64,000 bases of DNA from an uncultured Clostridia bacterium (GTDB lineage: Bacteria; Bacillota; Clostridia; TANB77; CAG-508): assembly GCA_934149075.1 (NCBI GenBank), contig CAKPDR010000009.1, forward strand, positions 1,565 through 65,564, read 5' to 3'. Below, piece by piece: positions 468 through 22,841 of the stretch. The stretch's first letter is position 1, and each line of letters opens with the position of its first letter. Position numbers and translations under genes: made by a program. The notes under the pieces were generated by a model that was not told where the DNA came from, did not search any database, and saw only the letters and a list, made by a program, of their open reading frames with translations.

Positions 468-527
468 GTAAGTGGTGTCCCCACTGGTAAATTTTTTTAC
501 CATTAATGAGTGTCCCTATTGGTAAAA
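468..527. repeat. Two units of the dispersed REP-like palindromic repeat (core GTGTCCCnAnTGGTAA / TTACCAnTnGGGACAC)
   Basis: Same motif is found at 7776-8052 and 17876-18013; it is intergenic, downstream of uvrC. Confidence 0.6.
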
Positions 528-2700: not shown

Positions 2701-2829
2701 TGTTTTATACAATTTATAAAAAATTTTTAAATCCCCCAAAAAACACTTGTAACTTTTTACATTTTGCTATAATATATTAAAGTAAATTGAAATATACTAA
2801 ATTCATAGAAAGGAGTATTATCTTTAAAT

Positions 2830-2990
2830 ATATTCAAGCGCCAGAACACTTTGATCTTTGTGTTGACGAGGTCTAGAGTTATCGATTTTTCGGCGGATGC
2901 TCTAGTGGATTGCTTAATCCATAGTATTAAACAAAAATTAGCAGTAATGCTATAACAGACATTAATACATAAGCAGTATATTTCAATTCC
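2830..2990 (+). ncRNA. glmS ribozyme: glmS ribozyme (GlcN6P-dependent self-cleaving riboswitch) in the glmS leader
   Basis: Hallmark cleavage-site/core sequence A|GCGCCAGAACU..UUGACGAGG..GUUAUCGAUUUUUCGGCGGAUGC, with cleavage predicted between A2837 and G2838, directly upstream of glmS. Confidence 0.85.
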
Positions 2991-4893: not shown

Positions 4894-5667
4894 TTATTTA
4901 TAATATTTTTTTATATTTTCAAGTGCACTTTTTTCTAATCTTGAAACTTGAGCCTGAGAAATTCCAATTTCATCAGCAACTTCCATTTGTGTTCTTCCAT
5001 CAAAATATCTTTTCTTTATAATTTTCTTTTCTTTTTCATTTAATCTTTTAAGAGCTTCTGCAATTGTCATATTATCGGCCCAATTCTCATCACTGTTTTT
5101 TGTATCTTTTACTTGGTCCATTATAAATATACTTTCAGACCCATCATTATATATAGGTTCTTGTAACGATACTGGATCTTGTATAGCATCAAAACTAAAT
5201 GCAATTTCTTCTCTTTCTACTCCTAATTCTTTAGCAATTTCTTCAATTGTTGGTTCCCTTCCCTTTTCTTTATTAAATCTATCTTTATATTGTATTGCTT
5301 TATATGCTAAATCTCGTACTGACCTACTTACTCTAATACTATTATTATCTCTTAAATATCTCCTTATCTCTCCTATTATCATTGGTACAGCATATGTTGA
5401 AAACTGTACGCCTTGACTTAAATCAAAATTATCAATCGATTTTATTAAACCTATACATCCTATTTGGAACAAATCATCTGCATTTTCGCCTCTACCATAA
5501 AACCTTTGTATTACACTTAATACTAATCTTAAGTTTCCTCTTATAAACTCTGCTCTTGCTTCTTCATCTCCTTGTTTTATCTTGATAAATAGTTCATCTT
5601 TTTCTTTATTTGTTAGTACTGGTAGTTTAGAGGTATTAACTCCACAAATCTCTACCTTGTTAATCAA
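4894..5667 (-). CDS. sigG: Sporulation sigma factor SigG; the ORF-track ORF is over-extended, and the real start is a TTG at 5667
   Basis: Near-identical blocks to B. subtilis SigG (NKVEICGVNTSKLPVL, GNLRLVLSVIQRF, FSTYAVPMIIGEIRRYLRDN, AIQDPVSLQEPIYNDG); GGGAGG RBS 8 nt upstream of TTG-ATT-AAC-AAG-GTA (LINKVEICG). Confidence 0.88.
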   Translation of the reverse strand: MINKVEICGVNTSKLPVLTNKEKDELFIKIKQGDEEARAEFIRGNLRLVLSVIQRFYGRGENADDLFQIGCIGLIKSIDNFDLSQGVQFSTYAVPMIIGEIRRYLRDNNSIRVSRSVRDLAYKAIQYKDRFNKEKGREPTIEEIAKELGVEREEIAFSFDAIQDPVSLQEPIYNDGSESIFIMDQVKDTKNSDENWADNMTIAEALKRLNEKEKKIIKKRYFDGRTQMEVADEIGISQAQVSRLEKSALENIKKYYK

Positions 5668-5725
5668 ATAAAAAACCTCCCTTTGGAAAATAACGTTATT
5701 ATAATTATTTCCAAAGAGAGCATTT

Positions 5726-7438
5726 TTATTCTTTATATGTTTTTTTATTTGCAAATTCTTTTAGTTTATTTTCAACTTCTTCCGCAGAAAATAAACCTAA
5801 AACTTCTTGTGCAAGCTCTTTACAATCATATTTCTCTAGTTCACTGATTCTTTTTCTAGCTTTTAATATACTATTTGAGTTCATAGAAAATTCATCTAAT
5901 CCAAGTCCAATTAATAATGGTATATATAGCTCGTCTCCAGCGGCTTCTCCACACATTCCACAGAATATTCCTGCATCATGTGCTCCATCTATTGCTAGTT
6001 TTATAAGTCTTATTACTGACGGATGAAATTTCGTATATAACTTTGATATCTTTTCATTTCCTCTTTCTGCTGCAACAGTATATTGAATCAAATCATTTGT
6101 TCCTATGCTAAAAAAGTCACATTCTTTTGCTAATCCATAAGCAATTAAAGCTGTTGATGGAATCTCTATCATTATACCAACTTTTATATGTTTTTTATAT
6201 GGTATATTTTTAGCGTCTAGTTCTTCTTTACATTCTTCTAATATCTTTTTAGCATCTCTTAATTCTTCAATTGAAGATATCATTGGGAACATTATTGATA
6301 GGTTTCCATAGGCACTTGCTCTTAATATTGCTTTTAATTGTATTTTGAATATTGCTATATTATCTAAGCATAAACGTATTGCTCTATATCCTAAAAATGG
6401 ATTTGCTTCTTTATCTAAATGTAAGTATTTTAATTCTTTATCTCCACCAACATCTAATGTTCTTATTATTACAGGCCTATCTTCCATTTTTTCTGCAACA
6501 GCTTTATATGCATTAAATTGTTCTTCTTCAGTTGGCATGTTTTCACTATCCATGTATAAAAATTCGCTTCTCAATAACCCTACACCTTCAGCTGTATTTT
6601 TTAAAGCTATGTCTGCATCAGCTGGTGTTCCAATATTAGCAACTAATTCAACTACATATCCATCAATTGTTTTTGTTACAGCATCTTTAAATTGTTCTAA
6701 TTCTTCTTTTTCTTTTATTAATTCATTTTTTATTTCTTCTAATTTTTCTTTTTCTTCTTTAGTTGGATTTAAATATATTTCACCTTTTTCACCATCTATT
6801 GCAACATAATCTCCTGTTCTAAGAATTTTTGTAGCTTCTTCTACTTTTGTTATAGCAGGAATTGCATGTGTTCTCGCCATTATAGATGTATGTGAATTTG
6901 TTCCTCCTAATTCTGTTATTATTCCAACTACATTTTCAAAATCCAATTTTGCAGTATCTGATGTTGTTAATTCTGTTGCAACAATTATTGTATCAGGATC
7001 TAATTTACTTATATTAACAGTTTCCTCATTAAATAATTTCGCAATTATTCTATTTTTGATATCTGCAATATCTCTTGCCCTTCCTGCCATATATTCATCA
7101 TCCATGTTTTCAAAAATTTGTATTACACTATTAAAGCCAATTTCTACTGCATATTCTGCACTATAATTTAAATTCGTTATTGCATTTTCAGTTTCTGTAG
7201 TTAGTGTTGGATCTTGCATTATCATTAAGTAAGCACTCATTATCTCTTTTTCTGTCCCACTTGATGAATTTACAATTTCTTCTGTTTCTTTTGTTACTTG
7301 CTCAAGTGCTTCTTTAAATCTTTTCATTTCTTTTTCAGAATCTTCTACTGTCTTTTTTTCAATTTGTCTTTCTTGATTTTTTAAAACAACTATTGTTCCA
7401 AATCCGATTCCTGTAGACACACCTTTTCCTCTTATCAT
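5726..7438 (-). CDS. ptsI: Phosphoenolpyruvate-protein phosphotransferase (PTS enzyme I)
   Basis: 570 aa; PEP-utilising enzyme domains; conserved GGxTSHxAIxAR-like segment (GGTNSHTSIMAR); RBS AGGAGGAAAC. Confidence 0.95.
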   Translation of the reverse strand: MIRGKGVSTGIGFGTIVVLKNQERQIEKKTVEDSEKEMKRFKEALEQVTKETEEIVNSSSGTEKEIMSAYLMIMQDPTLTTETENAITNLNYSAEYAVEIGFNSVIQIFENMDDEYMAGRARDIADIKNRIIAKLFNEETVNISKLDPDTIIVATELTTSDTAKLDFENVVGIITELGGTNSHTSIMARTHAIPAITKVEEATKILRTGDYVAIDGEKGEIYLNPTKEEKEKLEEIKNELIKEKEELEQFKDAVTKTIDGYVVELVANIGTPADADIALKNTAEGVGLLRSEFLYMDSENMPTEEEQFNAYKAVAEKMEDRPVIIRTLDVGGDKELKYLHLDKEANPFLGYRAIRLCLDNIAIFKIQLKAILRASAYGNLSIMFPMISSIEELRDAKKILEECKEELDAKNIPYKKHIKVGIMIEIPSTALIAYGLAKECDFFSIGTNDLIQYTVAAERGNEKISKLYTKFHPSVIRLIKLAIDGAHDAGIFCGMCGEAAGDELYIPLLIGLGLDEFSMNSNSILKARKRISELEKYDCKELAQEVLGLFSAEEVENKLKEFANKKTYKE

Positions 7439-7775: not shown

Positions 7776-8052
7776 AATGTTACCAGTAGGGACACCCATA
7801 AGTGGTCAAAATCTTTACCAATGGGGACACCCATAAGTGGTCAAAATCTTTACCAGTAGGGACACTCATTAATGGTAAAAGTTTATTATTTAATAATGTT
7901 TAAATAATAAATAATGAATATTAATATTAAATACTCTAACTTTTATTATACCTTTTACCATTAATGAGTGTCCCTACTGGTAAAGATTTTGACCACTTAT
8001 GGGTGTCCCTACTGGTAAAGATTTTAACCACTTATGGGTGTCCCTACTGGTA
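7776..8052. repeat. REP-like palindromic repeat array: three ~35-bp units, a ~65-bp AT-rich centre, then three units in inverted orientation
   Basis: Unit is TACCAGTAGGGACACCCATAAGTGGTCAAAATCTT and variants; the whole array is a large inverted repeat between the fruA 3' end and the ptsH promoter. Confidence 0.75.
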
Positions 8053-8060
8053 ACTCCAGA

Positions 8061-10010: not shown

Positions 10011-10913
10011 TTATATTTCTTTTAATAGGTTAGCTACTTCTTCTGCTGTTGCTAAATTCATTGAAAATGAGCTTGCACTTCCTGTAGCTATTCCCATTTT
10101 AAAAGCTTGTTCAAAATCTCCACTTTTTTCATAGCCTGCTATAAATCCCGCTACCATGGAGTCTCCTGCACCAACTGTATTTAATACTTTTCCTTTGGGT
10201 GCTTTTGAATAAAATTCTTTTCCTTCTGTTGTTAATAATATAGCTCCTTCTCCTCCTAATGATATTAAAACATTTTGTGCTCCAATTAGCTGAAGTTTCT
10301 TTGCATGAACTATAATTTCTTCTTTTGTTTCTATTTTTTCTTTAAATGTTTCTTCTAATTCTTCTTTATTTGGCTTTATTAAAAATGGTTTATATTTTAA
10401 AACATTCATTAATAATTCTTTTGTAGCATCTACTACAAATGTTACATTATTTCTTTCTAATGTTTTACATATTATTTCATATATATCATTATTTATACAT
10501 CTTGGTATATTTCCTGCTAGTATTACCATATCTTCTTTTGTTATTTTTTCAATTTTTTCTAATAATTTATTGATGTCTTCTTCTGTTATTTCTGGTCCAT
10601 TTCCATTTAACGCTGTTTCTTCATTTGAACTAATTTTTACATTGATTCTCGTAATTCCTTTTTCTACTTTTATAAAGTCTGTTTTTATCCCTTTTTCTTC
10701 AATGTTTCTTTTTAATTCTTTTCCTGTAAATCCTGCTATAAATCCTAATGCTGTACTTTCTATTCCAAGATTTTTTAGAACTGTTGATACATTTAGTCCT
10801 TTTCCTCCTGGAAGTATTTTTTCAGTTTTTGTTCTATTTATTTTTCCAATTTTAAAATTTTCTACTTGTGATATGTAATCTAGAGCTGGATTAAATGTAA
10901 TTGTATATATCAT
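10011..10913 (-). CDS. fruK: 1-phosphofructokinase (PfkB family); the start is moved to the second ATG
   Basis: MIYTITFNPALDY..GGKGLNVS..(ribokinase/PfkB motifs), DTVGAGDSMVAGF; GAGGTGA RBS 5 nt before the ATG at 10913; immediately upstream of fruA. Confidence 0.85.
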   Translation of the reverse strand: MIYTITFNPALDYISQVENFKIGKINRTKTEKILPGGKGLNVSTVLKNLGIESTALGFIAGFTGKELKRNIEEKGIKTDFIKVEKGITRINVKISSNEETALNGNGPEITEEDINKLLEKIEKITKEDMVILAGNIPRCINNDIYEIICKTLERNNVTFVVDATKELLMNVLKYKPFLIKPNKEELEETFKEKIETKEEIIVHAKKLQLIGAQNVLISLGGEGAILLTTEGKEFYSKAPKGKVLNTVGAGDSMVAGFIAGYEKSGDFEQAFKMGIATGSASSFSMNLATAEEVANLLKEI

Positions 10914-14740: not shown

Positions 14741-16450
14741 CTATCCAAATATTTTTTTCATTTCTTCATGTCTTTTAATTTTTAAAGTTGTTGTCTTTAT
14801 AAGCTCTTCTTCTGTAATAATCATTTCTCTAACATATTTATATTTAGGCATCAATCTATTAACTTCTTTTACTTTTTCCCATAAGAATTCTCTAATTTTA
14901 TCTTCAGCTTCAATATTATATAATTCTTTAATTATTTCTTTATCATAAACTATTTTTACGCAAACCTTCACATCTCCGTCGTCTTCTTTTTTTTCATAAA
15001 CAAATGATTCTTTTATTCCTTCTACTTTATTTAATAATGTTTCAATTTCTTCTGGGAATACATTTTTTCCATTATTTAGAACTATTACACTTTTCTTTCT
15101 GCCAGAAATATAAATAAATCCATCTTTATCAATTCTTGCTAAATCACCCGTATGGAACCACCCATCTGGTTCTAAAGCTGATTTGGTAGCTTCTTCATTT
15201 TCATAATACCCAAGCATTATTGATGGACCTTTTGCCATTAATTCTCCTATTCCTTCTTCGTCTGGATTATCAATTTTAACTTCAACACTTGGAAACTTCT
15301 TTCCTATTGAGCCTAATCTTCTACACTTAGGAATTTCTGCTGCAATTACTGGTGATGTTTCTGTAAGTCCATATCCTTGTTCTAAATCAAATCCTAAGTC
15401 ATTAAACCCTTTTTCAGTCTCAGGATCTAATGCTGCACCACCAGTTACAACTAATTTTAAATCTGGTCCTAAACTTTCATGAATTTCTTTAAATATTTGC
15501 TTTCTAAGGTCTATTTTTACTTTTAATAATAAATTTGATATCTTTCTACCTTTTTCTACAGTTGGTAATTTTCCTTTTTTCTCAATTGTTTTCATTACTT
15601 TTCTATATATAATATCAAATACAGCCGGAACTGATATCATTGCAGTTATACGATAGTCTTTAATGTTGTCTGCCATATGTTTTACACCTTCGCAAAAATA
15701 TATACATGATCCAATTGATACAGGATATAAAAATCCCACTGTACATTCGAATACATGATGTAATGGCAAGAATGATAAAAATCTTTCTTTATCATTTAAA
15801 TTGAATCTTTCATCTATATCCATTATGTTTGTTACTATATTTTTATGTGATAGCATTACTGCTTTTGACATTGCTGTAGTTCCTGATGTAAATAGCATTA
15901 TTCCCATTTTGTCAGCATCGATTTTTGCATCTAAATAACTTGTATCTCCATCTTCTATTAATTTTTTTCCTTTTTCTACTAATGCCTTTTGAGAATATAT
16001 GCCATTTGTATTTTCATCTAATTCCATTGATATAAAATATCTTAAATTAGTATTCTTTTTTTCTCTTAGCTTGTTCATTACTTCATCATATTTCTTTGAA
16101 TAAAATATTGCTTCTACTTGTGAACGTAAAATTAAACTTTCGATTTCATTTTCTGGTAATGATTTATCTAATGGTACAACCACTCCTGTTCCTGCTGCAA
16201 TTGATAAATATGCCAATTCCCATTCATATCTATTTTCAGAAATTACCGCAATCCTTTTGTCTTTTAACCCCATTTTTATTAGTGCCGTTCCTAATGCATT
16301 TATTTCATCTCTAAATTCCTTATGTGTTACTTGTCTCATTTCACCTTTTATTTCTGTTTTTAACATATATGCCGGTCTATTACTATATACTTCTCCTGTT
16401 TGTTTTAACATATCTTTTAAATCTGTATATTTCATTTTTTTTGATTCCAT
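14741..16450 (-). CDS. AMP-dependent synthetase/ligase (long-chain acyl-CoA synthetase-like)
   Basis: 569 aa; AMP-binding motif LFTSGTTAMSKAVMLSHKN, GYGLTETS, hinge/KxxK C-terminal region. Confidence 0.85.
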   Translation of the reverse strand: MESKKMKYTDLKDMLKQTGEVYSNRPAYMLKTEIKGEMRQVTHKEFRDEINALGTALIKMGLKDKRIAVISENRYEWELAYLSIAAGTGVVVPLDKSLPENEIESLILRSQVEAIFYSKKYDEVMNKLREKKNTNLRYFISMELDENTNGIYSQKALVEKGKKLIEDGDTSYLDAKIDADKMGIMLFTSGTTAMSKAVMLSHKNIVTNIMDIDERFNLNDKERFLSFLPLHHVFECTVGFLYPVSIGSCIYFCEGVKHMADNIKDYRITAMISVPAVFDIIYRKVMKTIEKKGKLPTVEKGRKISNLLLKVKIDLRKQIFKEIHESLGPDLKLVVTGGAALDPETEKGFNDLGFDLEQGYGLTETSPVIAAEIPKCRRLGSIGKKFPSVEVKIDNPDEEGIGELMAKGPSIMLGYYENEEATKSALEPDGWFHTGDLARIDKDGFIYISGRKKSVIVLNNGKNVFPEEIETLLNKVEGIKESFVYEKKEDDGDVKVCVKIVYDKEIIKELYNIEAEDKIREFLWEKVKEVNRLMPKYKYVREMIITEEELIKTTTLKIKRHEEMKKIFG

Positions 16451-16480: not shown

Positions 16481-17065
16481 TTATTTTATTCTTAATCCGT
16501 TTACAATTGTATTTTCGTATTCTTGATATAATTTCATTACATCCATTTGTTCTTCTTCTCTTTTTTTATATACCAATGTTGAGCATATTAAACCATATAT
16601 TTCTGAAGCAATTGCCCTTGTATCGCCTTTTTTTATCTCGCCTTTTTCAATTCCTTGTTGTACTATTTTTTCTATTTGTCCAATATAATCATATACATGT
16701 TCTTGGCATTTTTTATTTCTTGCTTCATTTCCCCAAAATTGACTTAGAATTATTGTTATTATATCTTCATATTTTGCCACTATCTTTATTTGAATTAATA
16801 TTATAGCTTTTATTTTATCTATGTAATTATTATGTTTTGCTGTTTTTATATCAACACTATTCTGTAACAGTTTAATTCCTTCTTCTATTAAGAAGTTGAA
16901 TATTTCTTCTTTACTAGAAAAGTGGTAATATAATGTGCCCTTTGCAACACCAACTGTCGCTGTAATTTCTTCTATGCTTGTTGCATCATATCCTTTTTCT
17001 GCAAATAGTTTCATTGATGTTTCAAATATTTTTCTTTTGGTTTTATTCATATACTTCACACCCAT
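16481..17065 (-). CDS. TetR/AcrR family transcriptional regulator
   Basis: N-terminal HTH TSMKLFAEKGYDATSIEEITATVGVAKGTLYYHF; likely forms an operon with the acyl-CoA ligase. Confidence 0.85.
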   Translation of the reverse strand: MGVKYMNKTKRKIFETSMKLFAEKGYDATSIEEITATVGVAKGTLYYHFSSKEEIFNFLIEEGIKLLQNSVDIKTAKHNNYIDKIKAIILIQIKIVAKYEDIITIILSQFWGNEARNKKCQEHVYDYIGQIEKIVQQGIEKGEIKKGDTRAIASEIYGLICSTLVYKKREEEQMDVMKLYQEYENTIVNGLRIK

Positions 17066-17231
17066 TATCTCTCAATTTTTCTTTCATATTATATAATTTT
17101 ATTGCATTTTATGCAAGCTTTTTTTATAATTTGAATTACCATTCAGTTTTTATGATACATATAAAAATATAAAAAGTTAAATAATATTCCACATTATGTT
17201 TTCCTTCAAGTTTACAATCTCATTTTCAAAA

Positions 17232-17311
17232 TTTATCCACATGGTTGTGGATAATGTGGATAACTTTGTGAATAACTTTAAATAGACATTTTTCATTTAC
17301 AAGTTATTCAC
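17232..17311. promoter_or_regulatory. Cluster of five DnaA-box 9-mers (three perfect TTATCCACA/TGTGGATAA, two TTATTCACA-type)
   Basis: Boxes at 17232-40, 17245-53 and 17254-62 (tandem, abutting), 17266-74 and 17303-11; intergenic region upstream of the tetR-ligase operon. Confidence 0.55.
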
Positions 17312-17407
17312 ATTTGGTTGTTGACAATTCTCAATTTACATTTATTTGCAATTTTTATCATTTTTTATGTAACTCATTTTTATAATGTATTGTAAAAAAT
17401 AAGAATG

Positions 17408-17517
17408 TAATATATTATTTTAAAGTTTAACAAGGTGTTTTAAATTTGTTTCAAACAAATTTAAAATAGCAAGACGTCCGCAGTTAAACGATAAAATAAT
17501 ATATTACATTCTTATTA
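17408..17517. repeat. Perfect 25-bp inverted repeat (AATAAGAATGTAATATATTATTTTA) with a 60-bp spacer that holds a second perfect 11-bp palindrome
   Basis: Nested hairpin structure; a T-run follows on the minus strand, so it is a possible oversized terminator for the gene at 17560-17862. Confidence 0.4.
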
Positions 17518-17559
17518 AATTATAAATACACGAATTATATAAAGTACGCTTTTATCTTT

Positions 17560-17862
17560 TTACATAAATTTCAAATAAATAACTAAAATAATCTCTAGAA
17601 TCAGTATTACCGGTAATCCTACTGTAAATTTAAGTTTTTTAGTTTTATGTCTAAACGTATACATTCCAGCAATAGTACCAATTCCTCCACCTAATGCAGT
17701 AACAATAAATAATGTTTGTTCTGGAATTCTCCATTTTCCCCACTTGGCTCTTCTTTTATCTGACCACATCATATAAAATCCTATTAGGTTTATAATCACT
17801 AAATAAATTATTATATTTCTTATAGAGAATATATCTCCTATTTGTATATTATTTTCTAGCAT
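17560..17862 (-). CDS. DUF1294-family small membrane protein; the start moves to the internal ATG because the ORF-track N-terminus is translated from the repeat
   Basis: ..KRRAKWGKWRIPEQTLFIVTALGGGIGTIAG..; AAAGGAAG RBS 5 nt before MLENN. Confidence 0.65.
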   Translation of the reverse strand: MLENNIQIGDIFSIRNIIIYLVIINLIGFYMMWSDKRRAKWGKWRIPEQTLFIVTALGGGIGTIAGMYTFRHKTKKLKFTVGLPVILILEIILVIYLKFM

Positions 17863-17875
17863 TTTTCTTCCTTTC

Positions 17876-18013
17876 TTACCAGTAGGGACACTCATTTCTG
17901 GTAATTTTTTTTACCAATAGGGACACCCTTTATATAATTTCATTAATTTTTTTCGCATAAGAGTGTCCCCTGTGGTAACTTTTTTTACCATTAATGGGTG
18001 TCCCCAATGGTAA
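17876..18013. repeat. Four units of the REP-like palindromic repeat in inverted pairs
   Basis: TTACCAGTAGGGACACTCAT..., ..TACCAATAGGGACACCC.., ..GAGTGTCCCCTGTGGTAA.., ..GGGTGTCCCCAATGGTAAA; lies between the polC stop and the DUF1294 gene start. Confidence 0.7.
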
Positions 18014-18014
18014 A

Positions 18015-21000
18015 TTATCCAAACAAACTCAATTGATTACTTTGACTCATTCCTTCCAAGCAACCGAATTGACGTAATAATTCTGTTACAGAATCACCTA
18101 TTTTTGCACGTATTTTCATATCATCAATTGACATGAATTTTTCTTCTTCTCTTGCTCTCATTATGCTTTCAGCCGCAACTGAACCTAATCCAGCTATACT
18201 ATTTAAAGGAGGACGAATACTATCTCCTTCTACTAAAAATTTTGTTGCATGTGACTTATATAAATCTATTGGTAAAAATCTAAATCCTCTTTCATACATT
18301 TCTAATACTATTTCCAAGTCATCATACATATCTTTGTCTTTTGGTGTTGCTGCATTTCCCATCATATCTATTTCTTTCATTTTATTTTTTACTTTTTCTT
18401 TTCCATTTATCATTGCTTCCGCGTCAAACGCTTTTGCTCTAATTGAATAATATGCTGCATAATATGCAAGTGGAATATGTACTTTGAACCATGCTATTCT
18501 GAAAGCATTTGTCACATATGCTGCTGCATGGGCCTTTGGAAACATGTATTTAATTTTTTCACATGATTTTACATACCAATCAGGTACTCCATGTTCTTCC
18601 ATTAATGGTATATATTCGTCTTTCCATTTTGGTTCTTTACCTTTTGCTACTTTTCCTTTACGTACCGCTTCCATTATTTTAAATGCTTTGTCTGGTGGTA
18701 ATCCTTTTTGCATTAGATATACCATTATATCGTCACGACAACATATTGCTTCTTTTAATGTTACTATTCCTTGTTCTATTAATGTTTGGGCATTTCCTAA
18801 CCATACATCTGTACCATGTGATAATCCTGATAAACGTATTAGTTCATCAAATGTGGTTGGATGTGTGTCCATAAGCATCCCTCTTGCAAATTTTGTTCCA
18901 TATTCAGGTATTCCAAATGTTCCAACTTCTGAATGTATTTGTTCTGGTGTTACTCCTAGGGCTGTTGTTGAATTGAATATTGACATTGTTTCTTTGTCGT
19001 CTAACGGAATTGCTGTTGGTGCTACTCCTGTTATGTCTTGTAACATACGAATTACTGTCGGATCGTCGTGTCCCAGTATGTCTAATTTTAGTAAGTTTCC
19101 GTCTATTGAGTGATAATCAAAGTGTGTTGTTATTATGTCTGAGTTTGGATCATCAGCGGGATGTTGTACTGGTGTAAATTCATATATTTCTCTTCCTTTT
19201 GGTACTACAATTATTCCGCCTGGATGTTGTCCTGTTGTTCTTTTTATTCCAGTACATCCTGCTGAAAGCCTTGTTATTTCTGCTTTATTTACTGGTATAT
19301 TTCTTTCTTCGTAATATTTTTTAACATAACCAAATGCTGTTTTATCTGCAACTGTACCTACTGTTCCTGCTTTAAATGTTGTTCCTTTTCCAAAGATTAC
19401 TTCTGTATATTTATGTGCTTTTGCTTGATATTCTCCTGAGAAGTTTAAGTCTATATCTGGTTCTTTATCTCCATTAAATCCCAAGAATGTTTCAAATGGT
19501 ATGTCCATTCCATCTTTTGCTAATTTTGCACCACATTTGGGGCAGTCTTTATCTGGTAAGTCAAATCCATTTCCTACTCCATAATCTTCAAATTCTGAAT
19601 ATTTGCATTTTGGACATCTATAATGTGGCTTTAATGAGTTTACTTCTGTTATACCTGTCATATATGCTACAAGTGACGAACCTACTGACCCTCTTGATCC
19701 TACTATATATCCATCTTCATTTGATTTCCATACTAATTTTTGTGCTATTATATACATTACTGAATATCCATTACTTATTATTGAATTTAACTCTTTGTCA
19801 AGTCTTGCTTGTACTATTTCTGGCAATGGATCTCCATATAATTCATGTGCCTTGTTATAAGCTATGTTTTTTATATCTTCTTCACATCCTGGTATATGTG
19901 GTGGACATTTTTCAGGTGATATTGGATCTATTCTATCACACATATCTGATATTTTATTTGTGTTTGTTACAACTACTTCATATGCTTTTTCTTCTCCTAA
20001 ATAGCTAAACTCTTGTAACATTTCTTCTGTTGTTCTTAAATATAATGGTGCTTGATTATCTGCATCTTTATATCCTTGACCTGCTTCTAATATACGTCTG
20101 TATATTTCATCTTGTGGATCCATAAAATGGACATCACATGTTGCTACAACTAGTTTGTTTAGTTTTTCTCCTAATTCTACTATTTTACGATTTATGTCTT
20201 TTAAATATTCTCTATCTGGTACTTTTCCATCTCTTACTAAAAAATCATTGTTTCCTATTGGTTGAATTTCTAGATAATCATAATCTCTTGCTATATTTTC
20301 TATTTCTTCATCTGATTTTCCAAGTTCTATTGCTTGATATAATTCTCCCGCCTCACATGCACTTCCTAATATTAAACCTTCTGAATATTTTTTGTATATA
20401 CTTTTTAATATACGTGGTTTTTTATAAAAATAATGTAAATGTGAAAGAGATACTAATTTATATAAATTTCTTAGTCCAATATAATTTTTTGCTAATATTA
20501 TTGCATGATATGTATTTAATTTTTTGTATTCTTCTTTCTTAGCATTTTCATCTCTTCCTATGGTGTCTATTTCTTCAACCTTTGTAACTCCTCTATCTTT
20601 TAATTTTTGTATCATTACATTAAATACTTTAACTGTTGTATCTACATCATCTAATGCTCTATGTGCTACTTCTACTACTATTCCTAATTCATCTGCAATT
20701 TTACCAAGTTTGTATTTTTTCATATTTGGAAATATATCCTTTGCAAGTGTTAATGTGTCTATTACTGTATAATCAAATTCATATCCTAATGCTTTTGCGT
20801 TTTGCTTTAAAAATCCAACATCAAATTTTGCATTATGTGCAACAATTATTGAATCTCCTAAAAATTCTAGTATTTTGGGAAATACTTTATCAATTGTTTC
20901 TGCATCTTTTACCATTTCATCTGTTATGTTTGTAACATCTACAACTCTTTGTGGAATTGGTTTCTCTGGATTTACAAAACAACTAAATTCATCTATTACC

Positions 21001-22841
21001 TCTCCATTTTGTACTTTCATTATTCCAACTTCTGTTATTTTTTCTGTTACTGCTGAAAACCCTGTTGTCTCTAAGTCTAATACACAATAGGTTGTATCTA
21101 ATGGTTGGCCTTTTGCATTTGTTACTGAATTTTCTTTGTCTGGTGCAAGATATGCTTCTACTCCATAAATTACTTTCATATCTTGGTTATCTCTTCCAAG
21201 TAAATGATATGCTTCTGGGAATGCTTGTACAACTCCATGGTCTGTTATTGCTATTGATTTCATTCCCCAGCTCATTGCTCTTTTTATTAAATCCTCTGCT
21301 GATGTCATTGCATCCATTTGACTCATTTTTGTATGCATATGTAATTCTACTCTTTTTACTTCTGCATGGTCTTCTCTTTTTGTCTTTGGTAATGGTTCTG
21401 ACACTACTATTGTATTTGCCATTACAGTTAACTCATTTGAAAAAGCATCCATTTGAGCTCTTCCTGCTAATTTTATCGCTTTCGTTCCTTTTAATCTTTT
21501 TATGATTTTTTTTGCACTATTTCCAGGTAAAAAAGCTTTACATGTCATAGTACTTGTTCCATCATATATGTCTATACTTAAAATTACCTTTCCTGATTTT
21601 GTTTCTTTATCTTCCATTGCTTGTATTTCACCATCTATACATACATTTCCTGTTTCTGGGTTAATATCTACTATTTTTACAAGTGGATCACTTATATTCA
21701 CTGATGAACCTAAAATTAATGGCGTACTGTCATCTTCTTCTGGAAGTGGTGGCATTCCTTCATCTGATATTTCAGCAATTATATTTGCCATTACAGTTAT
21801 ATCTCCTGCATAACTATCAAATCCAGCTTTACCTGTTGTCTTTATTGCCTTTGCTGATTTTATTTTTTCTAATATTTCATTTCCTTTTGCTCCGTCTTCT
21901 GCAAATGATTTACATGTAATTATTCCTGTACCATCATATATTTCGTATATTAACATTCCTTTTCCTGTTTTTGTTTCTCTACATTCACTGTTTACAATTC
22001 TTCCTTCTAGTGTTACTCTTCCAGAATTAGCATCTAATTCTTTTATCTTCATTTTCTTTTCCTTAGCTCTTGATGGTTTTCCAAATATGATATTTTCTGC
22101 TTGTGGTAATTCTTCCATTTCTGGCATATATCCTAGTTCTTCTTCTGGTGGAATAGCATAATCTGCATCATTATATGGTCCTTCTGGAAGTGGTGGAATA
22201 TCTCCTTGTATTTCTGGAGTAGTGTATTGTTCTTCTTGATGTGTTCTTATTGCAATTCCTCTCATTGCTTCATGTACTGCTTGTTCTTCAATCTTTTTTG
22301 TCTTTTCTTGAAATGCTTTTACTTCTTGCTCTTTTATTTTTTCTTCTATATTTACTTTATACTTTTTTCCAAATAAATTATATATTACATTTTCAAGTTC
22401 TCTATCCAATTTTCTTGCTTTTAGGAAATCCGCTCCTTTTATTTGCATATATACATTTACTTTGTTATCGGTTAATTCTACTTTACTTTTTAATAATAGC
22501 AATGGTCTCATTAACGGATATTTATGTGCCATATAGCATATTAAATTTTCCCATTCATCATCAATTCTTTTTATATATATTCCTTCTGGATATGTCATTA
22601 GCATATGTACTTGTTCAAACTGAAATCTTTCTCTTAAGAATTTTTCAAAATACCATATTTCTTTTATTTCTATATATTCCTTTGAAGCCATACCTAGTTC
22701 CAATGTGTTTATTCTTTTTATAAAATTCATTTTTGTTATTACTACATCTGCTATATTACTGTTTGTTTTATAATCACTGAATACATCTCCAATTTTCCTA
22801 CTTTTCTTTATTTCTTGTACTTCTGCCATTTGTTTTTTCAT
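18015..22841 (-). CDS. polC: DNA polymerase III PolC-type (Gram-positive replicase), 1608 aa with a tandemly duplicated OB-fold domain
   Basis: Collinear with B. subtilis PolC: PHP (VELHMHTKMSQMDA), DEDDh exonuclease (YCVLDLETTGFS..VAHNAKFDVGFL), PHP-C, Zn-finger (CPKCKYSEF..CPKCG), palm/fingers (GSRGSVGSS.., HPGGIIVVP, LDILGHDDPTVIRMLQD), C-terminal LSLFG. Confidence 0.95.
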   Translation of the reverse strand: MKKQMAEVQEIKKSRKIGDVFSDYKTNSNIADVVITKMNFIKRINTLELGMASKEYIEIKEIWYFEKFLRERFQFEQVHMLMTYPEGIYIKRIDDEWENLICYMAHKYPLMRPLLLLKSKVELTDNKVNVYMQIKGADFLKARKLDRELENVIYNLFGKKYKVNIEEKIKEQEVKAFQEKTKKIEEQAVHEAMRGIAIRTHQEEQYTTPEIQGDIPPLPEGPYNDADYAIPPEEELGYMPEMEELPQAENIIFGKPSRAKEKKMKIKELDANSGRVTLEGRIVNSECRETKTGKGMLIYEIYDGTGIITCKSFAEDGAKGNEILEKIKSAKAIKTTGKAGFDSYAGDITVMANIIAEISDEGMPPLPEEDDSTPLILGSSVNISDPLVKIVDINPETGNVCIDGEIQAMEDKETKSGKVILSIDIYDGTSTMTCKAFLPGNSAKKIIKRLKGTKAIKLAGRAQMDAFSNELTVMANTIVVSEPLPKTKREDHAEVKRVELHMHTKMSQMDAMTSAEDLIKRAMSWGMKSIAITDHGVVQAFPEAYHLLGRDNQDMKVIYGVEAYLAPDKENSVTNAKGQPLDTTYCVLDLETTGFSAVTEKITEVGIMKVQNGEVIDEFSCFVNPEKPIPQRVVDVTNITDEMVKDAETIDKVFPKILEFLGDSIIVAHNAKFDVGFLKQNAKALGYEFDYTVIDTLTLAKDIFPNMKKYKLGKIADELGIVVEVAHRALDDVDTTVKVFNVMIQKLKDRGVTKVEEIDTIGRDENAKKEEYKKLNTYHAIILAKNYIGLRNLYKLVSLSHLHYFYKKPRILKSIYKKYSEGLILGSACEAGELYQAIELGKSDEEIENIARDYDYLEIQPIGNNDFLVRDGKVPDREYLKDINRKIVELGEKLNKLVVATCDVHFMDPQDEIYRRILEAGQGYKDADNQAPLYLRTTEEMLQEFSYLGEEKAYEVVVTNTNKISDMCDRIDPISPEKCPPHIPGCEEDIKNIAYNKAHELYGDPLPEIVQARLDKELNSIISNGYSVMYIIAQKLVWKSNEDGYIVGSRGSVGSSLVAYMTGITEVNSLKPHYRCPKCKYSEFEDYGVGNGFDLPDKDCPKCGAKLAKDGMDIPFETFLGFNGDKEPDIDLNFSGEYQAKAHKYTEVIFGKGTTFKAGTVGTVADKTAFGYVKKYYEERNIPVNKAEITRLSAGCTGIKRTTGQHPGGIIVVPKGREIYEFTPVQHPADDPNSDIITTHFDYHSIDGNLLKLDILGHDDPTVIRMLQDITGVAPTAIPLDDKETMSIFNSTTALGVTPEQIHSEVGTFGIPEYGTKFARGMLMDTHPTTFDELIRLSGLSHGTDVWLGNAQTLIEQGIVTLKEAICCRDDIMVYLMQKGLPPDKAFKIMEAVRKGKVAKGKEPKWKDEYIPLMEEHGVPDWYVKSCEKIKYMFPKAHAAAYVTNAFRIAWFKVHIPLAYYAAYYSIRAKAFDAEAMINGKEKVKNKMKEIDMMGNAATPKDKDMYDDLEIVLEMYERGFRFLPIDLYKSHATKFLVEGDSIRPPLNSIAGLGSVAAESIMRAREEEKFMSIDDMKIRAKIGDSVTELLRQFGCLEGMSQSNQLSLFG

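What the first reader, a model, noticed from the sequence alone, without database searches (positions are those of the whole stretch)
17232..17311. Non-oriC cluster of five DnaA boxes upstream of the tetR-acyl-CoA ligase operon
Three perfect consensus boxes (TTATCCACA at 17232-40; TGTGGATAA at 17245-53 and 17254-62, directly abutting) plus two one-mismatch boxes (17266-74, 17303-11) lie within 80 bp. No dnaA, dnaN or obvious DUE context is present in the window. This resembles the DnaA-box clusters that titrate DnaA and modulate initiation in Bacillus, or a DnaA-regulated promoter. It sits ~170-250 bp upstream of the tetR start and is followed by a large nested perfect inverted repeat at 17408-17517.
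Basis: partly seen in the sequence, partly recalled or inferred. Interest (0 to 1): 0.5.

Follow-up and report, generated by a model that had tools for sequence, protein, structure and literature searches.

The report
Conserved non-origin DnaA-box cluster after polC
A tight group of six or seven binding sites for the replication initiator DnaA sits in the gap after the DNA polymerase gene polC; it is not the replication origin, it keeps the same layout in over a hundred related uncultured gut bacteria whatever gene follows it, and it is most likely a Bacillus-type DnaA "parking" site, not a switch for the tetR operon.

Summary
The boxes are real, but every coordinate is one base higher than reported. 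There are three perfect and two one-mismatch TTATCCACA boxes in 17233-17312, plus two 2-mismatch boxes at 17185 and 17319. None of 300 shuffles reproduced this density.

It is not oriC. The window holds no dnaA or dnaN, GC skew does not switch, and genes on both sides run the same way.

The cluster lies after a strong terminator hairpin that ends the polC-DUF1294 operon. It is 117 bp upstream of the conserved tetR-operon promoter.

Comparative data change the reading. The same layout (boxes at -52, -37, 0, +12, +21, +34) recurs in 24 of 80 polC-anchored species genomes and in 103 dereplicated sequences. It usually follows polC-DUF1294, but the next gene varies: rhodanese-lepA, a glycyl-tRNA-synthetase-like gene, tetR-AMP ligase, uvrA, relQ and others. 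tetR follows only in the closest relatives.

A position-specific ACATAA motif flanks the boxes on both sides and is unexplained.

Best reading: a self-contained DnaA-binding module of the Bacillus subtilis DBC type. The tetR link is incidental. It is a new member of a known kind. Distance to oriC and actual DnaA binding remain untested.

The parts
17319..17327 (-). Box 1. Reads TTGTCAACA on the - strand, 2 mismatches. Position -52 in the conserved layout.
   Evidence: The same position is the 1-mismatch box TTATCAACA in L007, L009, L018, L093 and L154.
17304..17312 (+). Box 2. TTATTCACA on the + strand, inverted relative to polC, 1 mismatch. Position -37.
   Evidence: An inverted box at -36 to -38 is present in most low-GC relatives. 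The TGTG-A-AA columns are nearly invariant.
17267..17275 (-). Box 3. TTATTCACA on the - strand, 1 mismatch. Position 0, the first box of the three-box core.
   Evidence: Its columns are invariant across 20 species.
17255..17263 (-). Box 4. Perfect TTATCCACA on the - strand. Position +12, 3 bp after box 3.
   Evidence: Invariant across 20 species.
17246..17254 (-). Box 5. Perfect TTATCCACA on the - strand. Position +21, abutting box 4.
   Evidence: The motif nTnTCCACA is invariant across 20 species.
17233..17241 (+). Box 6. Perfect TTATCCACA on the + strand, inverted relative to polC. Position +34.
   Evidence: An inverted box at +33 to +35 is present in many relatives.
17185..17193 (+). Possible weak box 7. 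TATTCCACA, 2 mismatches, inverted relative to polC.
   Evidence: It is not conserved in relatives, so confidence is low.
17365..17370 (-). Upstream flanking motif ACATAA (window GAGTTACATAAAA; family consensus AAAAAGTACACATAAAA).
   Evidence: Found at -100 to -85 from box 3 in 68 of 87 dereplicated low-GC sequences. Function unknown.
17194..17199 (-). Downstream flanking motif ACATAA (window GGAAAACATAATG; family consensus AAGGTAACATAATATAA).
   Evidence: Found at +50 to +99 in about 70 of 87 sequences. Nearly invariant columns in alignment A2. Function unknown.
17392..17516 (-). Intrinsic terminator of the polC-DUF1294 operon: a nested hairpin at 17398-17516, followed on the - strand by a run of six T at 17392-17397.
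   Evidence: As RNA, 17385-17560(-) folds to -45.7 kcal/mol with z = -8.2. Comparable hairpin plus T-run candidates separate DUF1294 from the boxes in many relatives, by a crude scan.
17560..17895 (-). DUF1294 small protein gene, the usual left-hand neighbour of the cluster.
   Evidence: Pfam PF06961, E = 1.2e-24. Found upstream of the cluster in 64 of 103 dereplicated sequences, counted together with polC.
18015..22841 (-). polC-type DNA polymerase III alpha gene, 1608 aa.
   Evidence: Pfam domain set. Used as the anchor for finding orthologous loci.
17088..17116 (-). Likely promoter of the tetR-AMP ligase operon: TTGCAT (17111-17116), 17 nt, TATAAT (17088-17093).
   Evidence: Coordinates. 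CTTGCAt-N17-TATAAT is conserved in the window, L007, L010 and L018, by my reading of alignment A2. It lies 117 bp from box 6. The consensus scan missed it because TTGCAT matches only 3 of 6 positions of TTGACA.
17132..17146 (-). Candidate TetR operator CTGAATGGTAATTCA (TGAAT-N4-ATTCA).
   Evidence: Coordinates. The same position in L007 reads ACTGAATACGTATTCAGT, a perfect palindrome. It is degenerate in L018, which lacks tetR. This is inference.
16481..17065 (-). tetR-family regulator gene. The true start is probably the second ATG at 17050, giving MNKTKRK as in L007.
   Evidence: Pfam TetR_N, E = 2.5e-18. L007 ORF sequence.
14741..16450 (-). AMP-binding (acyl-CoA ligase-like) enzyme gene.
   Evidence: Pfam PF00501, E = 1.3e-69.

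Best explanation
This is a non-origin DnaA-binding locus of the kind called a DnaA-box cluster (DBC) in Bacillus subtilis. Six or seven boxes over about 95-140 bp lie in a fixed order and orientation. In the polC direction they are: box 1 forward, box 2 inverted, a 28-bp spacer, boxes 3-4-5 forward (3 bp and 0 bp apart), then box 6 inverted 4 bp later.

Inferred mechanism: several DnaA molecules bind cooperatively and form a stable complex in the untranscribed gap between the polC-DUF1294 terminator and the next promoter. The module is self-contained, about 180 bp including two flanking ACATAA motifs, and is kept under selection for its own sake. Its most likely role is to hold or modulate DnaA away from oriC, buffering initiation. 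A secondary, lineage-dependent effect on the neighbouring promoter is possible. In this genome the tetR-AMP ligase operon sits next to it only because of a rearrangement.

Shown: the boxes, their conservation and layout, the non-origin context, the terminator and the variable neighbours. Inferred: DnaA binding itself (from a match to the canonical box) and any effect on initiation (by analogy).
For: The density of boxes is far beyond chance: 0 of 300 shuffles reached it.

Across 20 species the only invariant alignment columns are boxes 3-5. Box 2 and the ACATAA motif are nearly invariant, while mean column identity is 39%.

In 80 polC-anchored species genomes, every cluster of three or more boxes lies downstream of polC and none lies in the roughly 6 kb upstream. 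24 of the 80 carry the three-box core with at most 2 mismatches. On a rough tree they sit in several deep branches of one clade of uncultured low-GC Clostridia.

Together with the genome loci this gives 103 clusters after dereplication at 90% identity. 64 of them have polC or DUF1294 upstream.

The downstream gene differs: rhodanese-lepA 31, GlyRS-like 18, tetR 5, and also AIM24, uvrA, relQ, gltD and AMP ligase alone. Five clusters keep the module in front of rhodanese-lepA without polC-DUF1294 upstream. The module therefore survives breakage on either side.

In the window organism lepA lies 46 kb away and has no boxes upstream of it.

The locus is not an origin: GC skew is negative throughout, and genes on both sides are on the - strand. 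A strong terminator separates it from polC-DUF1294.

No small conserved ORF and no Rfam family lies in the gap.

For comparison, B. subtilis has six non-oriC DBCs. Deleting all six causes early initiation. DBCs lie next to different genes in different Bacillus species (PMC3245932), and one lies between two 3' ends (PMC4447404).
Against: DnaA binding is inferred from sequence alone.

The distance to oriC is unknown. It is more than about 57 kb, because the window and L207 reach that far towards the origin without dnaA. B. subtilis DBCs work best near oriC.

About half of the closest species lack the cluster, so it is dispensable.

In roughly 25 of 87 low-GC relatives a second group of inverted boxes sits beside the downstream gene's promoter. 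In L025, for example, TGTGGATAA lies 7 nt before TTGACT-17-TAAAAT. That points to a transcriptional role at least in those lineages.

The conserved ACATAA motifs are not explained by a simple titration model.

The metagenome set was selected by the core pattern, so conservation of the core within that set is circular. Only the polC-anchored genome set is unbiased.
Confidence: 0.6

Rival explanations
1. The cluster is mainly a transcriptional operator. DnaA bound here represses or activates the promoter of whatever gene lies downstream: tetR-AMP ligase in this genome, rhodanese-lepA or the GlyRS-like gene in relatives. This would couple those genes to replication status.
For: The boxes always lie upstream of, and in the same direction as, the next gene.

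About 25 of 87 relatives have extra perfect inverted boxes at +230 to +350, next to the downstream promoter.

A weak promoter-like site, TTGAAG-17-TATTAT at 17209-17181, starts 24 bp after box 6.

Several B. subtilis DBCs regulate sda, ywlC, yydA and dnaA (PMC3245932).

The same three-box core lies upstream of hpf, trmB-like, ymdB-like and proA-like genes in unrelated organisms of higher GC.
Against: The downstream gene changes at least eight times while the cluster stays fixed. No coherent regulon emerges.

In the window the conserved operon promoter is 117 bp from the nearest box and has no box beside it.

lepA lost its boxes when it was separated from the cluster.

The tetR operon has its own likely operator.
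Confidence: 0.25
2. The cluster serves the polC-DUF1294 operon from its 3' end. It could act as a protein roadblock or insulator reinforcing termination. It could instead control an antisense transcript that tunes polC or DUF1294 according to DnaA level.
For: polC or DUF1294 lies upstream in 64 of 103 dereplicated sequences. Insertions occur between polC and DUF1294, yet the cluster stays just after DUF1294, as in L009, L033 and L052. It sits directly after the terminator.
Against: Many species keep polC-DUF1294 without the cluster.

Five lineages keep the cluster with rhodanese-lepA but without polC-DUF1294. Another low-GC lineage has the same layout between an ltaS-like gene (my reading of its sequence, not verified) and a HAD-type gene.

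No convincing antisense promoter exists; the TTGACA at 17321-17326 is simply box 1.

The terminator is already very strong.
Confidence: 0.07
3. It is a replication origin, a second origin, or the relic of an origin or of an integrated plasmid or phage replicon.
For: It has many high-affinity boxes, including a tandem pair, within an AT-rich intergenic region 494 bp long.
Against: GC skew is negative on both sides, and nearly all genes for 46 kb to the right are on the - strand. They would be head-on to a fork starting here.

No dnaA or dnaN is present.

The core pattern has no match in 2.9 million viral contigs. No mobile-element genes are adjacent.

The locus is vertically conserved next to housekeeping genes.
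Confidence: 0.03

Closest known systems
[quoted passage not shown]
   Same: Both are clusters of consensus TTATCCACA boxes in an intergenic region outside oriC of a PolC-type Firmicute. The neighbouring genes differ between species. One B. subtilis DBC lies between two 3' ends, so it is not tied to a promoter. Some lie next to promoters and may regulate them.
   Different: DnaA binding and the effect on initiation are demonstrated in B. subtilis and untested here. Proximity to oriC is unknown here. According to Okumura et al., Bacillus DBC positions vary from species to species. This one keeps a fixed six-box geometry and a fixed left neighbour across a broad uncultured clade. It also carries conserved flanking ACATAA motifs, which I did not see mentioned for B. 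subtilis DBCs in the passages I read.
Escherichia coli datA
   Same: Both are non-origin clusters of about five high-affinity boxes that lower initiation potential. datA also needs a second bound factor (IHF) at a fixed site. The conserved flanking motifs here might play a comparable role.
   Different: datA acts by IHF-dependent DnaA-ATP hydrolysis. No IHF-type site (WATCAANNNNTTR) was seen by eye, and the box layout is different. No sequence homology is implied.
DnaA-regulated promoters (B. subtilis dnaA, sda, ywlC, yydA; E. coli dnaA, nrdAB)
   Same: Boxes lie upstream of, and co-oriented with, a transcription unit. In some relatives extra boxes abut the -35 of the downstream promoter.
   Different: In this window the nearest box is 117 bp from the -35 of the conserved promoter, and the target gene is not conserved.
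oriC basal unwinding system (tandem DnaA boxes, spacer, DnaA-trios; PMC8287927)
   Same: A tandem pair of same-orientation, near-consensus boxes (boxes 4 and 5, with box 3).
   Different: There is no skew or gene-orientation switch and no dnaA or dnaN. No run of GAT-type trios was seen next to the terminal boxes. The permissive NAN criterion cannot discriminate in DNA this A-rich.

Membership tests
Non-oriC DnaA-box cluster (B. subtilis DBC type) | Several consensus or near-consensus DnaA boxes packed into a short intergenic segment, well beyond chance | tested here: met
   Five boxes with up to one mismatch lie within 80 bp, three of them perfect. 0 of 300 shuffles reached this.
Non-oriC DnaA-box cluster (B. 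subtilis DBC type) | Located outside oriC: no dnaA or dnaN next to it and no strand-asymmetry switch | tested here: met
   GC skew is negative across all 64 kb and genes on both sides are on the - strand. No DnaA or DnaN family hit was found among the ORFs scanned.
Non-oriC DnaA-box cluster (B. subtilis DBC type) | Stable DnaA binding in vivo or in vitro | not testable with these tools
   Needs ChIP, IDAP-seq or footprinting. Only the match to the canonical box is available.
Non-oriC DnaA-box cluster (B. subtilis DBC type) | Deletion advances initiation and ectopic copies restore timing | not testable with these tools
Non-oriC DnaA-box cluster (B. subtilis DBC type) | Usually close to oriC (typical of the family, not strictly defining) | tested here: inconclusive
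   The origin lies to the right of the window and more than about 57 kb from the cluster. No contig linking the cluster to dnaA could be reached.
Chromosomal origin oriC | Switch of GC skew and of gene orientation at the site | tested here: not met
Chromosomal origin oriC | Adjacent dnaA or dnaN, as usual in Firmicutes | tested here: not met
   For the window, and the recalled-DnaA tblastn. The same recalled query also found no DnaA in the 120 metagenome loci that carry the core; that query is a lead only.
Chromosomal origin oriC | DnaA-trios and an unwinding element next to a tandem box pair (basal unwinding system) | tested here: inconclusive
   By inspection, no TAG/GAT-type repeat run lies next to the end boxes. 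The published NAN x3 criterion (PMC8287927) is met trivially in A-rich DNA, so it cannot discriminate.
E. coli datA / DARS | Specific box set plus an IHF (or Fis) site; catalysis of DnaA-ATP hydrolysis or of ADP release | not tested
   No computational search for an IHF site was run. The biochemistry is not testable. The flanking ACATAA motifs are only a loose analogy.
DnaA-regulated promoter | Boxes overlapping or abutting the core promoter of the regulated gene | tested here: not met
   Box 6 is 117 bp from the -35 of the conserved TTGCAT-17-TATAAT promoter. Only a weak consensus match (9 of 12) lies 24 bp from box 6. The feature is met in some relatives through a second box group.
DnaA-regulated promoter | Conserved regulated gene or coherent regulon | tested here: not met
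   At least eight different downstream genes were found.

The most novel reading that the evidence does not exclude
The unit under selection is a self-contained module of about 180 bp: six phased DnaA boxes bracketed by two same-strand ACATAA motifs about 168 bp apart. In this reading a second, unidentified factor binds the flanking motifs and shapes the DnaA complex. The locus would then act catalytically on DnaA, in the manner of datA or DARS, and not as a passive sink. It would be the first such element defined for Clostridia, found in a large uncultured gut lineage. In one sister lineage a perfect Spo0A-type box sits inside the module, which hints at a link to sporulation.
Probability: 0.15. 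Interest if true: 0.65.

Novelty: new member of a known kind. Interest (0 to 1): 0.35.

Why it matters
Control of DnaA outside the origin is well worked out only in E. coli (datA, DARS) and partly in B. subtilis (DBCs). Almost nothing is known for Clostridia, and less still for the uncultured low-GC gut lineages that carry this locus.

The comparative result is a fixed six-box geometry with abutting boxes and conserved flanking motifs. It persists through repeated rearrangement of both neighbours in more than 100 sequence-distinct lineages. That gives a concrete, synthesisable 180-bp element. It could be tested with purified DnaA or moved into a tractable Firmicute.

It also warns against reading such clusters as regulators of whichever gene happens to lie next to them.

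If it is only a passive DBC, it is an expected feature of Firmicute chromosomes and of modest interest.

Tried and rejected
- **oriC or a second origin:** rejected on GC skew, gene orientation and the absence of dnaA and dnaN.
- **Hidden small gene, for example an Sda-like checkpoint peptide, downstream of the boxes:** no conserved small ORF with a ribosome-binding site in 23 intergenic regions. The recurring 'ORFs' are just translated boxes.
- **Known non-coding RNA or leader:** nothing at Rfam gathering scores. The only hit at E up to 1 is a chance miRNA match. No T-box or other family lies in the gap in 11 relatives, even before the GlyRS-like gene.
- **Phage or mobile-element origin:** no match to the 30-nt core in the viral contig collection.
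- **ACATAA paired with TGTAAAC as a sigma-70 -10/-35 pair:** the spacing is only 13 nt in the window, L007 and L008. GTA.?ACATAA is rare elsewhere in the window, so it is not a general promoter element.
- **A Spo0A box as a general part of the module:** a perfect TGTCGAA in the spacer occurs in only 6 of 87 sequences, all from one sister lineage.
- **WalR-type TGTWAH-N5-TGTWAH repeats downstream of the boxes:** seen by eye only in one sublineage (L033, L040, L046, L048). Not general and not pursued.
- **Same-species metagenome contigs (L001-L006):** 98% identical, so uninformative on conservation.
- **Mapping the distance to dnaA:** not achieved. Contig walking is limited to window proteins, and 10 kb beyond the window still shows no dnaA.
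- **Boxes travelling with lepA:** none lie upstream of lepA in this organism.

Full report
**Observation**

- TTATCCACA at 17233-17241 (+);
- TGTGGATAA at 17246-17254 and 17255-17263, abutting;
- TGTGAATAA at 17267-17275;
- TTATTCACA at 17304-17312.

Two weaker sites with 2 mismatches extend the array. TGTTGACAA lies at 17319-17327 and TATTCCACA at 17185-17193.

The window as a whole is not rich in boxes. It has 19 sites with up to one mismatch against 23.9 expected, and only four perfect boxes, three of which lie here within 31 bp. In 300 dinucleotide-preserving shuffles the largest cluster in 80 bp was 3, and no shuffle had two perfect boxes within 31 bp.

**Local anatomy**

All genes around the cluster are on the - strand:
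- a polC-type polymerase at 18015-22841;
- a DUF1294 gene at 17560-17895;
- a 494-bp gap;
- a tetR-family gene at 16481-17065;
- an AMP-binding ligase at 14741-16450.

Its arms are 17398-17431 and 17483-17516, 94% complementary, and they enclose a perfect 14-nt palindrome. As RNA the 17385-17560(-) segment folds to -45.7 kcal/mol (z = -8.2). The hairpin is followed on the - strand by a run of six T. I read it as the intrinsic terminator of polC-DUF1294.

The boxes follow about 70 bp after the terminator. The tetR operon has its own good promoter, TTGCAT-17-TATAAT at 17116-17088. By my reading of alignment A2 this promoter is conserved in the window, L007, L010 and L018. Just upstream is a likely TetR operator at 17132-17146; the same position is a perfect 18-nt palindrome in L007. 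The last box is 117 bp from the -35 of this promoter. Only a weak consensus match, TTGAAG-17-TATTAT at 17209-17181, lies close to the boxes.

**Not an origin**

GC skew is negative in nearly every 2-kb bin across the 64 kb, and the cumulative curve falls steadily. Almost all genes on both sides are on the - strand. A fork starting here would meet 46 kb of head-on genes, including polC. No DnaA or DnaN family appears among the scanned ORFs. The origin must lie to the right of the window. Ten further kilobases in that direction (L207) still show no dnaA.

**Relatives**

The organism is a common member of gut metagenomes; the TetR protein is indexed in 245 blocks of the collection. Same-species contigs are 98% identical and so say nothing about conservation.

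Anchoring on the C-terminal 499 residues of PolC gave 80 species genomes. Most are uncultured low-GC Clostridia MAGs, with true Clostridium species further out.

- Every cluster of three or more boxes in these 13-kb loci lies downstream of polC. None lies in the roughly 6 kb upstream.
- 24 of the 80 carry the three-box core with at most two mismatches.
- On a rough neighbour-joining tree they fall in several deep branches of one clade, with losses scattered among them. They are absent from cultured Clostridium species and from the outgroups.
- In an alignment of 20 species the mean column identity is 39%. The only invariant columns are TTATTCACA-N3-TTATCCACA-nTnTCCACA. The inverted box at -37 and an ACATAA about 68 bp downstream are nearly invariant.

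Numbered from the start of box 3 and read in the polC direction, the layout is:

| Box | Position | Orientation |
|---|---|---|
| 1 | -52 | forward |
| 2 | -37 | inverted |
| 3 | 0 | forward |
| 4 | +12 | forward |
| 5 | +21 | forward |
| 6 | +34 | inverted |

**The neighbours change and the cluster does not**

tetR follows the cluster only in the closest relatives (L007, L010 and a few metagenome contigs). In L018 the AMP ligase follows directly, without tetR. Elsewhere the next gene is one of the following:
- a rhodanese-domain gene followed by lepA;
- a GlyRS-like class II aminoacyl-tRNA synthetase;
- an AIM24-family gene;
- uvrA;
- a RelA/SpoT-domain gene;
- gltD, or others.

Together with the genome loci these form 103 clusters at 90% identity.

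- 64 have polC or DUF1294 upstream.
- The first downstream gene is rhodanese in 31, the GlyRS-like gene in 18 and tetR in 5.
- Five keep the module in front of rhodanese-lepA without polC-DUF1294 upstream.

Insertions between polC and DUF1294 leave the cluster just after DUF1294, as in L009, L033 and L052.

In the window organism lepA lies at the right end of the window (63355 onward), 46 kb from polC, and has no boxes upstream of it. So the probable ancestral order polC-DUF1294-cluster-rhodanese-lepA has been broken on either side in different lineages. The cluster persisted each time.

A crude scan finds hairpin plus T-run candidates between DUF1294 and the boxes in many relatives.

**Other contexts**

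The same three-box core also occurs in unrelated organisms of 38-54% GC. There it lies upstream of hpf, a TrmB-type methyltransferase, a YmdB-like gene and a proA-like gene (the last is my reading of its sequence).

In a second low-GC lineage it lies between an ltaS-like gene (again my reading) and a HAD-type gene. That lineage has the same -38/0/12/21 layout and a perfect Spo0A-type TGTCGAA in the spacer.

None of the 120 metagenome loci has a DnaA homologue beside the core. This rests on a tblastn with a recalled B. subtilis DnaA sequence and is a lead only. The core has no match in the viral contig collection.

**Extra conserved features**

An ACATAA motif is strongly position-specific on the polC strand:
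- at -100 to -85 in 68 of 87 low-GC dereplicated sequences, consensus AAAAAGTACACATAAAA;
- at +50 to +99 in about 70 of 87, consensus AAGGTAACATAATATAA.

In these segments ACATAA occurs 218 times against 30 for its reverse complement. In the window the two copies are at 17365-17370 and 17194-17199.

The motif is not a general promoter element of this genome. It does not form a properly spaced -35/-10 pair with the nearby TGTAAAC. I could not explain it.

Roughly 25 of 87 relatives also have one to three perfect inverted boxes at +230 to +350, beside the downstream gene's promoter. In L025, for example, TGTGGATAA lies 7 nt before TTGACT-17-TAAAAT. The window lacks these.

No conserved small ORF and no Rfam family lies in the gap.

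**Interpretation**

The closest known kind is the non-oriC DnaA-box cluster of B. subtilis. That organism has six such clusters. Deleting all six advances initiation, and a single ectopic copy partly restores timing, best near oriC. Some double as operators (sda, ywlC, yydA). In other Bacillus species the clusters lie next to different genes (PMC3245932). One lies between two 3' ends, and all bind DnaA with high affinity in vitro (PMC4447404).

The locus here meets the features that sequence can test: box density, intergenic position and non-origin context. Binding, the initiation phenotype and proximity to oriC could not be tested.

I therefore file it as a new member of that kind. The tetR association is incidental. 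A transcriptional role remains a live secondary possibility, about 0.25, because of the promoter-proximal boxes in relatives. A 3'-end role for polC-DUF1294 is less likely (0.07), and an origin is very unlikely (0.03).

What goes beyond the B. subtilis picture is the fixed six-box geometry, the conserved flanking motifs and the persistence of the module across a broad uncultured clade. That leaves open, at about 0.15, that this is a more specific datA-like or DARS-like device with a partner protein.

**Caveats**

- The metagenome set was selected by the core pattern, so invariance of the core within it is circular. Only the polC-anchored genome set is unbiased, and I chose the 20 aligned species because they have clusters.
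- The tree is a rough NJ tree on one protein fragment.
- The terminator scan in relatives is crude.
- The DnaA query used for tblastn was recalled from memory.

Noticed in passing
window 475-525(-), 7780-7865(+), 7968-8053(-), 17876-17926(+), 17963-18013(-): A dispersed repeat family, TTACCA[GA]T[AG]GGGACAC, with a 35-nt period, forms inverted arrays in intergenic regions. One array sits in the polC-DUF1294 gap. There are 12 good copies against 0.69 expected. The segment 17865-18025(-) folds to -60.5 kcal/mol (z = -8.2). It looks like a REP- or MITE-like element.
   Followed up: partly
L003:2584-2668, compared with window 17398-17516: In one of eight same-species contigs, the interior of the terminator inverted repeat is inverted and 34 nt shorter. 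The cause could be recombination between the arms or an assembly artefact at a hairpin.
   Followed up: partly
window 17194-17199 and 17365-17370; L101, L131, L161, L192 and L091 around the core: A position-specific ACATAA motif flanks the DnaA boxes on both sides in most relatives. A sister lineage with different flanking genes has the same layout plus a perfect Spo0A-type box, TGTCGAA, between boxes 2 and 3. This is unexplained.
   Followed up: partly
window 30185-31832(+) and 41714-43338(-); 44719-45028(-): Two large serine recombinase genes are each split into two ORFs. A group II intron RNA (domains D1-D4) lies nearby. Another contig of the same species has about 9.6 kb less between tetR and the SpoU methylase gene, so a mobile or excisable element probably lies in this stretch.
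   Followed up: no
window 63355-64000(-), compared with L008, L081 and others: lepA lies 46 kb from polC here. In many relatives it sits immediately after polC-DUF1294, the box cluster and a rhodanese gene. This marks a rearrangement that left the cluster with polC.
   Followed up: yes
L081:8560-8650, L011:8480-8520, L025:7780-7840: Many relatives carry a second group of perfect inverted DnaA boxes 230-350 bp downstream of the main cluster, abutting the promoter of the next gene. This gives a bipartite arrangement that could loop. The window lacks it.
   Followed up: partly
window 18015-22841(-): The PolC here is 1608 aa, noticeably longer than the roughly 1430-1450 aa I recall as typical for PolC. 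Gene callers give 1604 aa in the same-species metagenome contigs.
   Followed up: no
window 2826-2978(+), 4894-5754(-), 39816-40958(-): A glmS ribozyme lies upstream of glmS. sigG and yqfD are present, so the organism is probably a spore former.
   Followed up: no
L025, L035, L046, L052, L059: The GlyRS-like gene downstream of the cluster has no T-box leader at Rfam gathering score in these relatives. A T-box is found elsewhere in L059, at 10469-10696.
   Followed up: no
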